Positions 3,954 through 31,290 of a stretch of 64,000 bases of DNA are shown one piece after another. The notes beneath the pieces are model-generated. The model did no database searches. It was not told the origin of the DNA and worked only from the letters and a program-made list of their open reading frames with translations. Both the position numbers and the translations under genes were made by a program. Source of the DNA: Escherichia phage BEU50; sequence record OM632671.1; one strand, given 5' to 3'. Position 1 is the stretch's first letter; each line of letters begins with the position of its first letter.

Positions 3954-6279
<2,326 letters not shown>

Positions 6280-29288: not shown

Positions 29289-29804
29289 ATGAATATTTGT
29301 TTAGGCAGTACAATTCCTAAGGGTTACGTAATTGATGTCACTACTTGGGAAAATGACGGCGACAACTATAAAACCAAAACATTATTTGGTGTGGAAGAGC
29401 ATGAGCTCCAACAGTTTAAATATCTCTTGAAGAAATTTAAGAGTCGTCATTCCAGCACTAAAGCTGAACGTTACTGTGGTAATACACCATTCAGTGATTG
29501 CTCGCTTTTAATCTATGAATACTTGGTTGAAGGGCTGTTCTCAGACCAGCTTTATCCAGAATTCATTAAAAAGGTCTTTGATATTGAAGTCGACCTTGGT
29601 AATAAATCTGAAGAAGACGAATCGCGTGTATTCGACCTGTTCCATGAGAATGGATATTTGGTATCAGAAGGTCTCATTGATATTCTTGGTCATGCTTCTG
29701 AATATTATGATTATGATTTCTTGCGTGTAGTTGAATGTGTTGAATTTGCTTATATTGAAGAAGAAATCGTTTTGCCAACTGTTAAAATGATTGATTTGCT
29801 TTAA
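29289..29804 (+). CDS. hypothetical acidic protein
   Basis: 171 aa ORF. Confidence 0.55.
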   Translation: MNICLGSTIPKGYVIDVTTWENDGDNYKTKTLFGVEEHELQQFKYLLKKFKSRHSSTKAERYCGNTPFSDCSLLIYEYLVEGLFSDQLYPEFIKKVFDIEVDLGNKSEEDESRVFDLFHENGYLVSEGLIDILGHASEYYDYDFLRVVECVEFAYIEEEIVLPTVKMIDLL

Positions 29805-29883
29805 GAATTATGTGTTATTATTAATTCGTACCCTCTATTACCAAAGGTGCTCTAAAGTGCCTTTCATAATAGAAAGTTATTTA

Positions 29884-29957
29884 GGCCCTGTAGCTCAATG
29901 GTTAGCAGCAGTCCCCTCATAAGGGAAAGGTTACCAGTTCGAATCTGGTCTGGGTCA
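29884..29957 (+). tRNA. tRNA with anticodon CAU (Met, or Ile if lysidine-modified)
   Basis: Manually folded cloverleaf: acceptor GGCCCTG / CTGGGTC, anticodon loop CTCATAA, T-arm ACCAG-TTCGAAT-CTGGT; D-stem imperfect. Confidence 0.7.
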
Positions 29958-29963
29958 TATATT

Positions 29964-30040
29964 CGAGGCATAGCTCAATTGTATGGAGCAACGGACTTCT
30001 AATCCGTAGGTTGAAGGTTAGAATCCTTCTGTCTCGACCA
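29964..30040 (+). tRNA. tRNA-Arg (anticodon UCU), CCA encoded
   Basis: Acceptor CGAGGCA / TGTCTCG, anticodon arm ACGGA-CTTCTAA-TCCGT, T-arm GAAGG-TTAGAAT-CCTTC, 3' ACCA; 6 nt after the previous tRNA. Confidence 0.85.
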
Positions 30041-30058: not shown

Positions 30059-30403
30059 ATGAAAGGCAATATTTATCTGGTAGTTCATGATTTAACGTTT
30101 TATTTTAACGAATATGATACAGTTATTTCTCATCGATTGATTAATTCGCTGTATCAGCATGCCGATTACATTTATGTTCAAAATGAATTTGGACATTGGA
30201 AGTTCATTAAAAATCGTTACGGGTTAACTAGTTTTGAATACTTTGACCGTAAAGACCTTTTAAACGAAATCCCATTGCAACATCGATTCCAGAAACGCGA
30301 ATCATTATATTATTGCCGTCATATACCAAACGCCGAATGTGTTAATGAAGCGATTAATCTATGGCGTCGGCGTCGAGAGCAAATTGATGATATGCCAAAA
30401 TAA
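30059..30403 (+). CDS. hypothetical protein
   Basis: ATG after SD gaggaaa; the track ORF 30011 would overlap tRNA-Arg, so the downstream start is used. Confidence 0.5.
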   Translation: MKGNIYLVVHDLTFYFNEYDTVISHRLINSLYQHADYIYVQNEFGHWKFIKNRYGLTSFEYFDRKDLLNEIPLQHRFQKRESLYYCRHIPNAECVNEAINLWRRRREQIDDMPK

Positions 30404-30715
30404 GAAGCCGGGTCGCTACCGGTAAGTCGTCGGACTGATGTTCCCTGAGTAAGGACTGGTCTTAATAAATCTTTACGATTTGTTAATATCCCCTTACATC
30501 ACAGCAGAAACGGCGCACAGAATTATCGATTCGAGGAAATATCTTTGCCGTAAGCCGAGTAGCGTTTTTGACGGAACGTTCGGATATGGTCGAGATATGG
30601 CCTTTTAAAAATATTGAGTAGCGTCAACTGCTTAATAACCGGGTTCGAATCCCGGCGTTTCGTACAAACACTTGCCTTAGCAGGTGGAAACCCCGACAAG
30701 GTTGCCGCAAGGCTT
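30404..30715 (+). ncRNA. non-coding region with tRNA-like T-arm; possible stable small RNA(s) analogous to T4 tRNA-cluster species
   Basis: About 310 nt with no convincing ORF; ACCGGG-TTCGAAT-CCCGG T-arm-like element near 30640-30660; ends at a rho-independent terminator. Confidence 0.3.
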
Positions 30716-30745
30716 AGCCCCTTCCGAAAGGTTGGGGCTTTTTGG
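30716..30745 (+). terminator. rho-independent terminator (repeated element, copy 1)
   Basis: agcccc-ttcc-gaaa-gg-ttggggct hairpin followed by TTTTTGG. Confidence 0.65.
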
Positions 30746-30788
30746 CATAATAATAAATAGATAAGTTAATTAACTTAGGAAAAGCAAC

Positions 30789-31253
30789 ATGAAATCATAC
30801 GCTGAATTTTTGACTGAACAATCTAGTTCAGATGTAAAAGCCGCTGCGATTGCAGCAATTCAAGCAGGTAAATATTCTTACAAAGACGCCTCTGATGAAG
30901 AACGTTTCCGTTTTATTAGAGATTTTAAAGCCGAAGGTTTTACTAATGCTAATACTGTTAGCCGAGTTTTTAAAAGCCTAGCTGCATCAGGTGAATTGTT
31001 CCAGAAAGCTACAGGTAAAGCACCTGCGCCAAAAGCGGACCCTAAAGCAGCTCAAGAAAAAAATATCGCCAAAGGAATTATTTCTAAGTATGAAGCAATT
31101 CTTAAAGAGCTTTTAGTAATCAAAACAGAAGGACAGAAACTGGCACGAGCACATAGCTTCAAAGATAATCCTCACGCTCATAGCCTTGAGTATGTTGAAG
31201 ATATCCAAAAACTTATTAAAGACCGTATCTGGTCTGCTAAACAAATTAAATAA
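30789..31253 (+). CDS. internal-protein-like protein with N-terminal capsid-targeting sequence
   Basis: 154 aa; begins MKSYAEFLTE (CTS with L-x-E); flanked by terminator copies 1 and 2. Confidence 0.6.
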   Translation: MKSYAEFLTEQSSSDVKAAAIAAIQAGKYSYKDASDEERFRFIRDFKAEGFTNANTVSRVFKSLAASGELFQKATGKAPAPKADPKAAQEKNIAKGIISKYEAILKELLVIKTEGQKLARAHSFKDNPHAHSLEYVEDIQKLIKDRIWSAKQIK

Positions 31254-31258
31254 TAGAA

Positions 31259-31290
31259 TGCCCCTTCCTTATGGTTGGGGCTTTTTGGCA
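31259..31290 (+). terminator. rho-independent terminator (repeated element, copy 2, loop variant)
   Basis: gcccc-ttcc-ttat-gg-ttggggc plus T-run; same stem as copy 1. Confidence 0.65.

What the first reader, a model, noticed from the sequence alone, without database searches (positions are those of the whole stretch)
30404..30748. About 310-nt non-coding stretch with a tRNA-like T-arm, ending in a terminator: possible stable small RNA
No plausible ORF. It contains ACCGGG-TTCGAAT-CCCGG, a canonical T-arm, but no matching acceptor stem, and ends at a strong terminator. T4 encodes small stable RNAs in its tRNA cluster; this may be the equivalent or a tRNA remnant.
Basis: partly seen in the sequence, partly recalled or inferred. 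Interest (0 to 1): 0.4.

Follow-up and report, generated by a model that had tools for sequence, protein, structure and literature searches.

The report
Phage T4 stable RNAs rnaD, rnaC
This non-coding stretch is the already-known pair of small stable RNAs (species 2/rnaD and species 1/rnaC) that closes the tRNA operon of T4-like phages; their function is still unknown, but rnaC is clearly a tRNA-shaped molecule.

Summary
The window comes from a T4-like phage and is 100% identical to Escherichia phage a20 (Mosigvirus). Region 30404-30748 holds three modules, not one RNA. (1) 30400-30519 is the homolog of T4 rnaD (species 2 RNA), 87% identical. (2) 30526-30664 is the homolog of T4 rnaC (species 1 RNA), 137/139 identical. 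(3) 30665-30748 is a conserved 3' trailer ending in the intrinsic terminator of the tRNA operon.

Its guess "equivalent of the T4 stable RNAs" is right. Its statement that no acceptor stem matches is wrong. The 5' end (30527-30533) pairs with 30656-30662, directly beside the T-arm, and this pairing covaries across genera.

Twenty-six distinct homologs support a tRNA-like four-way junction (94% of cells paired, 27 of 49 pairs with compensatory changes). They also support an elbow-like contact between a conserved GG and the T-loop. A 6-bp kissing interaction (UUGACG/CGUCAA) changes to UUGGCG/CGCCAA in Klebsiella phages.

There is no anticodon loop, and Rfam and ARAGORN find nothing here. The literature I could search still calls the function unknown. 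Verdict: already known; modest interest, mainly for a testable structural model.

The parts
29794..29829 (+). T4 middle-promoter-like site (MotA box ATTTGCTTTA, 12 nt, TATTAT) just upstream of the tRNA genes; probable start of the operon transcript
   Evidence: My own regex scan. The consensus comes from established knowledge of T4 middle promoters. PMC2330249 states that in T4 a middle promoter just upstream of the tRNA cluster drives one transcript that ends after the species I RNA gene. Inferred, not shown, for this phage.
29884..29957 (+). tRNA-Met (CAT)
   Evidence: ARAGORN; Rfam RF00005, 54 bits
29964..30040 (+). tRNA-Arg (TCT); in T4 this tRNA directly precedes rnaD
   Evidence: ARAGORN; Rfam, 67.6 bits; T4 annotation
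30059..30403 (+). 114-aa ORF (phrog_3355, unknown function; RB69ORF150c-like) between tRNA-Arg and rnaD; absent at this place in T4. Its stop codon (30401-30403) overlaps the 5' end of the rnaD homolog.
30400..30519 (+). Homolog of T4 rnaD (species 2 RNA)
   Evidence: 105/121 aligned columns identical to T4 rnaD. 734 phage records match it. MFE z -3.18.
30407..30423 (+). rnaD 5' hairpin: 5-bp stem with invariant 7-nt loop GUCGCUA
   Evidence: RNAalifold: the closing pair covaries (A-U 14, G-C 6, G.U 3)
30426..30518 (+). rnaD main hairpin. It is closed by the invariant helix GUCGUCG (30426-30432) / CGGCG-c-AC (30511-30518). Its distal part (about 30447-30497) is hypervariable, with at least 4 sequence types among otherwise near-identical phages.
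   Evidence: The closing helix never varies, so covariation says nothing for or against it.
30520..30525 (+). 6-nt spacer GAAUUA between rnaD and rnaC
   Evidence: T4 annotation mapped onto the window
30526..30664 (+). Homolog of T4 rnaC (species 1 RNA): a tRNA-shaped four-way junction
   Evidence: 137/139 identical to T4 rnaC. Covariance model score 160.5 bits. MFE -50.2 kcal/mol, z -4.55, with the same fold as the consensus. Covariation.
30527..30533 (+). rnaC acceptor stem, 5' strand (CGAUUCG). It pairs with 30656-30662, with two central U.U mismatches.
   Evidence: Position 3 is A-U in 13 sequences, G-C in 12 and G.U in 1. PM2 has A-U at the first pair and U-A in place of both U.U.
30534..30603 (+). 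rnaC long arm at the D-arm position. It has a 3-bp 'D-stem' (AGG/CCU), an internal loop with conserved UGG (30598-30600), and then an irregular helix ending in loop UUGACG.
   Evidence: helices 3-6 are 95-100% paired, and 16 of 21 pairs changed on both sides
30568..30573 (+). Loop L1, UUGACG: kissing partner of 30622-30627
   Evidence: Perfect 6-nt complementarity. 99.4% of cells paired over 26 sequences. A-U becomes G-C in Klebsiella phages.
30598..30600 (+). Conserved UGG; the GG behaves like tRNA G18 G19 (elbow contact with the T-loop)
   Evidence: G30599 versus T-loop position 2 is G/U in 23 sequences and C/G in 3. G30600 and C at T-loop position 3 are both invariant.
30612..30637 (+). rnaC 10-bp hairpin at the anticodon-arm position, with 6-nt loop CGUCAA (30622-30627); no 7-nt anticodon loop
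   Evidence: helix 8 is 96.5% paired, and 7 of 10 pairs changed on both sides
30639..30655 (+). rnaC T-arm: CCGGG / UUCGAAU / CCCGG
   Evidence: middle pair G-C in 14 sequences, U-A in 10
30656..30666 (+). rnaC acceptor 3' strand (CGUUUCG, 30656-30662) followed by the tail U-A-C-A. The tail is U-(A/C)-C-A in all 26 homologs and UCCA in Klebsiella phages and PM2.
30665..30715 (+). 3' trailer with two small hairpins (30669-30686 and the GNRA hairpin GCC-GCAA-GGC). It is conserved in phages that carry rnaD. It is replaced by a tRNA or a gene in Karamvirus-, Klebsiella- and Serratia-type phages.
30716..30743 (+). Intrinsic terminator of the tRNA operon
   Evidence: Fold of -15.6 kcal/mol plus a U5 run. 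Annotated as a terminator in G9062, NBG2 and GiZh. [quoted passage not shown]

Best explanation
The stretch is the 3' end of the phage's tRNA operon. It encodes the orthologs of the two classical T4 'stable RNAs', rnaD (species 2, 30400-30519) and rnaC (species 1, 30526-30664). These are followed by an 84-nt structured trailer and the operon terminator.

Shown here:
- Homology and synteny with T4.
- rnaC folds as a tRNA-shaped four-way junction. The acceptor stem is made of its own 5' and 3' ends. A canonical T-arm stacks next to it. A 3-bp D-stem-like helix carries a conserved GG that covaries with the T-loop, as in the tRNA elbow.
- In place of the D-loop there is a ~60-nt inserted helix.
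- In place of the anticodon arm there is a 10-bp hairpin. Its 6-nt loop is complementary to the tip of the inserted helix, forming a kissing loop.

Inferred:
- rnaC carries the acceptor/T-arm/elbow module that tRNA-processing enzymes recognise, and in other genera it sits between tRNA genes at tRNA-like spacing. It is therefore probably cut out of the polycistronic precursor like a tRNA: RNase P at the 5' end, then endonuclease plus exonuclease trimming at the 3' end.
- That trimming also frees the 3' end of rnaD.
- The compact fold would explain why the RNA accumulates as a stable species.

Proposed function: rnaC has no anticodon loop and lacks the acceptor features AlaRS would need, so it is probably not a decoder. 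My best guess (about 0.3) is a non-decoding tRNA mimic that binds or titrates a host or phage factor recognising the acceptor/T-arm/elbow. It would be dispensable in laboratory hosts but useful in some natural hosts. rnaD is a separate module with a hypervariable hairpin and unknown role.
For: Identity
- 100% identical to phage a20 (Mosigvirus), with 811 T4-like records matching.
- T4 annotation has tRNA-Arg / rnaD / rnaC in the same order.
- 137/139 and 105/121 identity to T4 rnaC and rnaD.
- The same segment is annotated rnaC in ATK47, GiZh, RB3 and RB10.

Structure of rnaC
- RNAalifold on 21 sequences: 25 of 42 pairs with compensatory changes.
- On 26 distinct sequences from 8 named genera of Tevenvirinae plus unclassified Klebsiella phages: 94.0% of cells paired, 27 of 49 pairs changed on both sides, 0 of 500 shuffles as good. 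Slid controls give 37-50% paired.
- Single-sequence MFE gives the same fold.
- Kissing loops UUGACG/CGUCAA become UUGGCG/CGCCAA in five Klebsiella-type sequences.
- Elbow covariation G/U to C/G.

tRNA-like handling
- In Karamvirus, Gelderlandvirus and Winklervirus rnaC lies next to tRNA genes with spacers of 5-11 nt, between tRNA-Trp and tRNA-Gly in Karamvirus and Gelderlandvirus. In Kanagawavirus a tRNA-Met ends 8 nt upstream.
- The tail U-(A/C)-C-A is conserved.

Selection
- rnaC is at least 95% identical in 680 of 745 records.
- The surrounding 1.5 kb reaches at least 95% in only 141 of 783 records, and rnaD in 154 of 734.

Expression, for T4 only
- One primary transcript is the precursor of the tRNAs and of species I and II RNAs (PMC2330249).
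- RNAC was detected by northern blot; RNAC and RNAD were classed as late RNAs (PMC9697503).
Against: - No expression or RNA-end data exist for this phage. The ends are transferred from the T4 annotation.
- RNase P dependence of rnaC maturation is my inference plus my recollection of the 1970s-80s T4 literature. I could not retrieve those papers.
- The acceptor stem has two U.U mismatches in 25 of 26 sequences, and the annotated 5' end lies one nucleotide upstream of the stem. The exact cleavage site is therefore uncertain.
- The kissing-loop covariation rests on one lineage (Klebsiella phages), with partial support from PM2. The elbow covariation rests on two lineages.
- Nothing here identifies a binding partner. 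Every paper I could read says the function is unknown (PMC3014915, PMC9697503, PMC12685909).
- rnaC is precisely absent from some Dhakaviruses, so it is dispensable.
Confidence: 0.9

Rival explanations
1. Cis-acting operon element only. rnaD, rnaC and the trailer exist to guide processing and protect the 3' end of the tRNA precursor. They would offer entry sites for RNase P and RNase E and structures that block 3' exonucleases. The excised RNAs would be stable by-products with no function in trans.
For: - They sit at the 3' end of the tRNA operon just before the terminator.
- rnaC can be lost cleanly (Dhakavirus IME08 and IME281).
- rnaD is absent from Karamvirus-type phages.
- No function has been found in 50 years.
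Against: - In Karamvirus and Gelderlandvirus phages rnaC lies in the middle of the tRNA cluster, between tRNA-Trp and tRNA-Gly, not at the 3' end, yet keeps the same fold and length.
- Its sequence conservation (at least 95% in 680 of 745 records) far exceeds what a spacer or processing signal needs.
- Conserved loops, a kissing interaction and a tRNA-like elbow point to a defined 3D object.
Confidence: 0.2
2. Base-pairing riboregulator. One or both RNAs act like bacterial sRNAs by pairing with host or phage mRNAs, for example through the conserved loops or the A/U-rich linker.
For: - Loops are invariant (GUCGCUA in rnaD; UUGACG and CGUCAA in rnaC).
- There is an A/U-rich single-stranded linker at 30604-30611.
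- PMC9697503 calls them 'small regulatory RNAs' without data.
- A convergent SNP in rnaD was reported during adaptation of a T4-like phage to host ECOR34 (PMC12685909).
Against: - The two rnaC loops are complementary to each other and change together. This is explained by loop-loop pairing rather than by a common external target.
- The 2010 review (PMC3014915) says no trans-acting regulatory RNA had been functionally characterised in T4.
Confidence: 0.1
3. Decayed tRNA gene (pseudogene or remnant) with no function of its own.
For: - It has a canonical T-arm.
- There is a weak Rfam tRNA-Sec hit (16.6 bits against a gathering score of 47).
- Some pipelines label the 3' ~95 nt as tRNA-OTHER or tRNA-Met. 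Other records show tRNA-Lys or tRNA-Asn under the match.
Against: - ARAGORN and Rfam at gathering score find no tRNA here.
- The acceptor pairing used by the tRNA-Sec alignment has no covariation, and its fourth pair (columns 49-138) is broken in 10 of 26 sequences.
- The non-tRNA arms are maintained by compensatory changes, and the length is fixed at 138-141 nt.
- The RNA accumulates in T4 infection.
Confidence: 0.03
4. Aminoacylatable tRNA-like or tmRNA-like RNA acting on the ribosome.
For: - It has an acceptor/T-arm/elbow module.
- The tail is UCCA or UACA.
- It shows superficial resemblance to E. coli tmRNA (GAUUCGA near the 5' end; GCUUAAUAACC). This resemblance is from my memory of the ssrA sequence and was not tested.
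Against: - ARAGORN finds no tmRNA, and Rfam gives no tmRNA hit even at E<=10.
- Position 3:70 is A-U or G-C, with G.U only in PM2, so the AlaRS determinant is absent.
- There is no 7-nt anticodon loop, no conserved tag reading frame and no pseudoknot series.
- The 'GCUUAAUAA' segment lies in a stem that covaries freely.
Confidence: 0.03
5. The region encodes small proteins, as annotated in phage a20 (a20_251, a20_250) and other GenBank records.
For: Two CDS are annotated over window 30480-30608 and 30614-30760 in the identical record OQ067374. 'Hypothetical protein' labels appear in many records.
Against: - Both have TTG starts that are not conserved (TTA, CTG, CCT or TCG in relatives).
- T4 has an in-frame stop in the first ORF.
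- The second ORF is frameshifted or interrupted in several close relatives, and both are destroyed in other genera.
- The substitution pattern is that of paired RNA helices.
Confidence: 0.01

Closest known systems
Bacteriophage T4 species 1 RNA (rnaC, T4s001) and species 2 RNA (rnaD, T4s002)
   Same: Orthologous. Identity is 137/139 (rnaC) and 105/121 (rnaD). Order is the same downstream of tRNA-Arg, with the same trailer and terminator. Function is unknown in both.
   Different: This phage has a 114-aa ORF between tRNA-Arg and rnaD. It has only two tRNA genes upstream, against eight in T4. Its rnaD distal hairpin differs in sequence from T4's.
Canonical tRNA
   Same: It has a 7-position acceptor stem made from the two ends, a 5-bp T-stem with UUCGAAU loop directly adjacent, a GG that covaries with T-loop positions 55/56, a U73-like nucleotide followed by (A/C)CA, a location among tRNA genes, and a four-way junction.
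   Different: - It is 139 nt long.
- The D-loop carries a ~60-nt helix.
- The arm at the anticodon position has 10 bp and a 6-nt loop engaged in a kissing contact.
- A 9-nt linker replaces nucleotide 26, and 1 nt replaces the variable loop.
- The acceptor has two U.U mismatches.
- It is not detected by ARAGORN or by Rfam RF00005.
tmRNA tRNA-like domain, and bacterial Y-RNA-like YrlA (tRNA-mimicking modules inside larger RNAs)
   Same: Same concept: an acceptor/T-arm/elbow mimic joined to non-tRNA helices, and not used for decoding. This comparison rests on general knowledge.
   Different: There is no Rfam hit to tmRNA or any Y-RNA-like family even at E<=10. There is no G3.U70, tag ORF or pseudoknots. 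In YrlA the tRNA-like module is internal, whereas here the RNA termini form the acceptor stem.
   Same: A phage-encoded ~120-170-nt RNA with two hairpin loops complementary to each other. This comparison rests on general knowledge.
   Different: There is no sequence or fold relationship. In pRNA the pairing is intermolecular and builds a ring on the portal. For rnaC it is unknown whether the pairing is intra- or intermolecular, and T4 DNA packaging needs no RNA.

Membership tests
T4 species 1 RNA (rnaC) | Sequence homology to T4 rnaC over its full length | tested here: met
   137/139 identical with no indels; covariance model score 160.5 bits
T4 species 1 RNA (rnaC) | Located in the tRNA gene cluster, on the same strand, upstream of the operon terminator | tested here: met
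   PMC2330249
T4 species 1 RNA (rnaC) | Accumulates as a discrete, stable ~140-nt RNA in infected cells | not testable with these tools
   Shown for T4 by northern blot (PMC9697503). No data for this phage.
T4 species 2 RNA (rnaD) | Sequence homology to T4 rnaD, and position between tRNA-Arg and rnaC | tested here: met
   105/121 aligned columns identical, with conserved 5' and 3' thirds and a variable centre. An extra ORF separates it from tRNA-Arg.
tRNA (Rfam RF00005 / ARAGORN) | Acceptor stem contiguous with a T-arm | tested here: met
tRNA (Rfam RF00005 / ARAGORN) | Anticodon arm with a 5-bp stem and 7-nt loop | tested here: not met
   10-bp stem and 6-nt loop CGUCAA that pairs with another loop
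tRNA (Rfam RF00005 / ARAGORN) | Score above the family threshold | tested here: not met
   No tRNA call by ARAGORN or by Rfam at gathering score. The best clan hit is tRNA-Sec, 16.6 bits against 47.
tRNA (Rfam RF00005 / ARAGORN) | D-loop GG contacting T-loop positions 55/56 (elbow) | tested here: inconclusive
   GG is present 3 bp above the junction. G/U changes to C/G in 3 of 26 sequences, and G-C is invariant. This is suggestive, but it rests on few events and there is no 3D test.
tmRNA (RF00023) | G3.U70 in the acceptor stem, a tag reading frame, pseudoknots, and detection by ARAGORN or Rfam | tested here: not met
Intrinsic (Rho-independent) terminator | G+C-rich hairpin followed by a U-run at the end of the transcription unit | tested here: met
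   30716-30743, -15.6 kcal/mol, U5 run. Missed by the simple scanner because of an internal 2x2 mismatch. Termination itself was not tested.

The most novel reading that the evidence does not exclude
rnaC may be a complete structural mimic of the tRNA L-shape, keeping acceptor stem, T-arm and elbow. Its 'anticodon' hairpin would be deliberately locked by a conserved 6-bp kissing interaction with the tip of a helix inserted in the D-loop. Alternatively, the loops could pair between molecules, giving dimers or rings. On this reading it acts as a decoy or scaffold for a factor that recognises tRNA shape, such as a host defence nuclease or a tRNA-processing or tRNA-modifying enzyme. That would explain why T4-like phages of Enterobacterales keep it almost invariant. 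No Rfam family covers this RNA, and I found no paper describing this architecture.
Probability: 0.25. Interest if true: 0.6.

Novelty: already known. Interest (0 to 1): 0.3.

Why it matters
The finding itself rediscovers two RNAs known since the 1970s, so it adds nothing to the catalogue.

It still has some value. The function of T4 species 1 and 2 RNAs is one of the oldest unanswered questions about T4. These RNAs are routinely missed or mis-annotated in hundreds of deposited T4-like genomes, as hypothetical proteins or odd tRNAs. Rfam has no family for them.

The comparative model obtained here includes a true acceptor stem, an elbow contact, kissing loops and modular gain and loss of rnaC and rnaD. 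It gives concrete mutations and assays with which the question could be attacked.

Tried and rejected
1. Rfam at gathering score and at E<=10, and ARAGORN: nothing in the region except weak chance-level hits (tRNA-Sec 16.6 bits, isrK, mascRNA T-arm).

2. The tRNA-Sec-like fold suggested by Rfam, with acceptor nt 46-53 / 131-138: 90.9% paired, but no better than shuffles. Its fourth pair (columns 49-138) is broken in 10 of 26 sequences, and that strand belongs to a covarying internal hairpin. Rejected.

3. The whole-region MFE pairing the rnaD 5' end with the rnaC T-arm: it disappears when the RNAs are folded separately and is not in the consensus.

4. tmRNA-like reading (GCUUAAUAACC, GAUUCGA): no support.

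5. Complementarity of the acceptor 5' strand GAUUCGA to the T-loop UCGAAUC: a by-product of the palindrome TTCGAA. It is lost in phages with T-loop UGCAUGC while the 5' strand is unchanged.

6. Search for homologs outside T4-like phages:
- A metagenome pattern scan gave 120 stretches, of which 80 were listed and scanned with the model. Only a 167-kb T4-like contig scored.
- A scan of GTDB genomes gave 9 hits, all chance. The best was 18.9 bits with many non-canonical pairs.
- IMG/VR scans added only Tevenvirinae.

7. Small ORFs annotated in GenBank: not conserved.

8. Literature:
- Miller et al. 2003 is not held.
- No paper holds both 'species 1 RNA' and 'bacteriophage T4'; a later search for the phrase found only PMC2330249, which uses 'species I RNA'.
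- The 'p2Sp1' search gave unrelated hits.
- No paper found proposes a function.

9. rnaD as a tRNA-like RNA: I found no acceptor/T-arm arrangement. Only a 5' hairpin and a long hairpin are present, and the closing helix is invariant, so it is untestable by covariation.
Full report
**What the window is.** Region 30404-30748 is 100% identical to Escherichia phage a20 (Mosigvirus, Tevenvirinae). It matches 811 records of T4-like phages, and 679 of them cover at least 80% of it. In the 64-kb window, ARAGORN and Rfam at gathering score find only tRNA-Met (29884-29957) and tRNA-Arg (29964-30040), just upstream.

**Check of the observation.**
- The T-arm CCGGG-UUCGAAU-CCCGG is at 30639-30655. The exact core GGTTCGAATCC occurs once in the window.
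- There is no credible ORF. Only ORFs of 23-58 aa are present, with TTG, GTG or ATG starts.
- The record of the identical phage a20 annotates two CDS here, equal to window 30480-30608 and 30614-30760. Their start codons and frames are not kept in close relatives. T4 has an in-frame stop in the first, and both are destroyed in other genera.
- The stretch ends in AGCCCCUUCC-GAAA-GGUUGGGGCU followed by U5, at 30716-30743 (-15.6 kcal/mol). The simple scanner missed it because of an internal 2x2 mismatch.
- The region folds much better than shuffles: z -5.57 for the whole, -4.55 for rnaC and -3.18 for rnaD.
- The one wrong point is 'no matching acceptor stem' (see below).

**Identity.** In T4 (NC_000866) the order is tRNA-Arg, rnaD (species 2 RNA, 119 nt), rnaC (species 1 RNA, 139 nt), then a non-coding trailer. 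Aligning T4, ATK47 and G9062 with the window and mapping coordinates gives:
- rnaD = window 30400-30519 (105/121 aligned columns identical).
- rnaC = window 30526-30664 (137/139 identical, no indels).
- ATK47's own rnaC annotation maps to exactly 30526-30664.
- The 84 nt from 30665 to the terminator are also nearly identical to T4.

So the 345-nt 'RNA' is really two known RNAs plus the operon's 3' trailer. According to PMC2330249, T4 transcription starts at a middle promoter upstream of the cluster. [quoted passage not shown] The window has a MotA-box-like site (ATTTGCTTTA, 12 nt, TATTAT) at 29794-29829, just before tRNA-Met. This is a consensus match only.

Unlike T4, this phage has a 114-aa ORF (30059-30403, phrog_3355, unknown function) between tRNA-Arg and rnaD. 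Its stop codon overlaps the first bases of the rnaD homolog.

**Structure of rnaC.** I collected 26 distinct homologs. They come from Tequatrovirus, Mosigvirus, Dhakavirus, Karamvirus, Kanagawavirus, Winklervirus, Gelderlandvirus, Mosugukvirus and unclassified Klebsiella phages. Length is held at 138-141 nt even where the middle third is unalignable by eye.

RNAalifold predicts a four-way junction, and 25 of 42 pairs show compensatory changes. On the 26-sequence alignment:
- 94.0% of cells are paired.
- 27 of 49 pairs changed on both sides.
- 0 of 500 shuffles reach this, and slid controls give 37-50% paired.

The MFE of the window sequence alone is the same fold.

The elements of the fold, in window coordinates, are:
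- **Acceptor stem:** 30527-30533 with 30656-30662. The third pair is A-U in 13 sequences, G-C in 12 and G.U in 1. The two central positions are U.U in 25 of 26 sequences and U-A in PM2.
- **Long arm:** 30534-30603. It starts with a 3-bp stem (AGG/CCU), followed by an internal loop with conserved UGG.
- **Linker:** 9-nt, A/U-rich.
- **Hairpin:** 10 bp, 30612-30637, with loop CGUCAA.
- **One nucleotide**, then the T-arm at 30639-30655.
- **Acceptor 3' strand**, then a tail U-(A/C)-C-A. The tail is UCCA in the Klebsiella phages and PM2.

The acceptor pairing that the Rfam tRNA-Sec model chose (nt 46-53 with 131-138) is not supported. It shows no covariation, and its fourth pair (columns 49-138) is broken in 10 of 26 sequences. 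That strand is part of a covarying internal hairpin (helix 6).

**Two tertiary contacts.**
- *Kissing loops.* The tip of the long arm (UUGACG, 30568-30573) is exactly complementary to the loop of the 10-bp hairpin (CGUCAA, 30622-30627). This is the only 6-mer complementarity in rnaC that falls outside the secondary-structure helices, apart from a palindrome artefact. Both loops are invariant in most sequences although their stems vary. In the Klebsiella-phage lineage both change together, to UUGGCG and CGCCAA, in 5 sequences. In PM2, 4 of the 6 pairs remain.
- *Elbow.* G30599 tracks T-loop position 2: G with U in 23 sequences, and C with G in 3 (Kanagawavirus and Winklervirus). G30600 and the C at T-loop position 3 are invariant. 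This is the pattern of tRNA G18-Psi55 and G19-C56.

Each contact rests on one or two evolutionary events, so they are well-motivated hypotheses rather than proofs. The data cannot say whether the kiss is intra- or intermolecular.

**Genomic behaviour.** In Karamvirus and Gelderlandvirus, rnaC lies between tRNA-Trp and tRNA-Gly, with spacers of 5-11 nt. In Winklervirus it lies between tRNA-Phe and tRNA-Trp, and in Kanagawavirus a tRNA-Met ends 8 nt upstream. None of these has rnaD beside it or the trailer after it. In the Klebsiella phages it follows tRNA-Met.

Conversely, the Dhakaviruses IME08 and IME281 keep rnaD and the trailer but lack rnaC precisely (...GCGCACCGAA|CACTTGCC). rnaC and rnaD are therefore independent modules that behave like tRNA genes.

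rnaC is an island of conservation. It is at least 95% identical in 680 of 745 records. rnaD reaches that in only 154 of 734 records, and the surrounding 1.5 kb in 141 of 783.

The covariance model found nothing outside Tevenvirinae in the loci fetched from IMG/VR, JGI metagenomes or GTDB genomes.

**rnaD and the trailer.** rnaD has:
- a 5' hairpin (30407-30423; 5 bp plus invariant loop GUCGCUA; the closing pair covaries);
- an invariant closing helix (30426-30432 with 30511-18);
- conserved internal loops;
- a distal hairpin of at least four unrelated sequence types among otherwise near-identical phages.

I found no tRNA-like arrangement in it. The trailer folds into two small hairpins plus the terminator. 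The middle hairpin shows one G-C to A-U exchange between variants (by inspection).

**How it most likely works.**
- *Shown:* homology, synteny, the fold and the terminator.
- *From the literature, for T4:* co-transcription with the tRNAs, and accumulation late in infection with a northern blot for RNAC.
- *Inferred:* rnaC carries the acceptor/T-arm/elbow module and sits at tRNA spacing among tRNAs. It is therefore probably released from the precursor by the tRNA-processing machinery, which also frees the 3' end of rnaD. Its compact, kissing-loop-locked fold would explain its stability.
- *Function:* it has no anticodon loop and no G3.U70, and ARAGORN and Rfam do not see a tRNA or tmRNA. A decoding or trans-translation role is therefore unlikely. 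My preferred reading (about 0.3) is a non-decoding tRNA mimic that binds a factor recognising tRNA shape. The rivals are a purely cis-acting processing or stability role (about 0.2) and a base-pairing regulator (about 0.1).

All papers I could read state that the function is unknown (PMC3014915, 2010; PMC9697503, 2022; PMC12685909, 2025). The 2025 paper reports a convergent SNP in rnaD during adaptation to a semi-permissive E. coli host. That hints at a host-specific role but does not define it.

**Verdict.** This is the already-known rnaD/rnaC locus of T4-like phages, so novelty is nil and interest is modest. The by-products worth keeping are a covariation-backed tRNA-like model of rnaC with two testable tertiary contacts, and the modular gain and loss of the two RNAs. 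A further point is that many public genomes annotate this locus as hypothetical proteins or aberrant tRNAs.

Noticed in passing
window 30059-30403: A 114-aa ORF (phrog_3355, unknown function; RB69ORF150c-like) lies inside the tRNA operon between tRNA-Arg and rnaD. It is absent at this position in T4, where segB and more tRNAs occupy the cluster. Its stop codon overlaps the rnaD 5' end, so rnaD's 5' end cannot simply be made by tRNA-Arg 3' processing as it could be in T4.
   Followed up: partly
window 30480-30608 and 30614-30760 (= OQ067374 a20_251, a20_250): GenBank records of identical or near-identical phages annotate 'hypothetical proteins' across rnaD, rnaC and the trailer. Other records label the rnaC 3' domain tRNA-OTHER or tRNA-Met, or show tRNA-Lys or tRNA-Asn under the match. 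The ORFs are not conserved, so these look like systematic mis-annotations of a known RNA locus.
   Followed up: yes
L162 (IME08) 298-440 and L163 (IME281) 298-440: Two Dhakaviruses have lost rnaC precisely, joining rnaD directly to the trailer (...GCGCACCGAA|CACTTGCC). Other Dhakaviruses (LHE83, ABTNLsp5) keep it.
   Followed up: partly
window ~30447-30497 (rnaD distal hairpin); L013, L015, L159-L163: The distal hairpin of rnaD occurs in at least four unrelated sequence types among phages whose flanking rnaD sequence is almost identical. This suggests cassette-like replacement or diversifying selection. A 2025 paper reports a convergent SNP in rnaD during adaptation to E. coli ECOR34.
   Followed up: partly
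window 30557-30565 and 30616-30624: The 9-mer GAGTAGCGT occurs twice in rnaC. Each copy forms the 5' strand leading into one of the two kissing loops. This could reflect an internal duplication or a repeated binding site.
   Followed up: no
window 31258-31290: A near-copy of the operon terminator (GCCCCTTCC-TTAT-GGTTGGGGCTTTTTGGCAT) follows the next gene (30789-31253, phrog_2280). The same terminator module is reused after consecutive units.
   Followed up: no
window 29794-29829: A T4 middle-promoter-like site (MotA box ATTTGCTTTA, 12 nt, TATTAT) overlaps the end of ORF 29289-29804, just upstream of tRNA-Met. It probably corresponds to the promoter of the tRNA operon known in T4.
   Followed up: partly
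window 4864-4874: GGTTCAAATCC, a T-loop-like 11-mer with one mismatch, lies on the + strand far from the tRNA cluster. ARAGORN calls no tRNA there. Probably chance (0.79 such matches expected).
   Followed up: no
window 29884-30040: This phage carries only two tRNA genes (Met-CAT, Arg-TCT) ahead of rnaD and rnaC. T4 has eight, and other T4-likes have ten or more. The stable-RNA genes are retained while the tRNA set shrinks.
   Followed up: no
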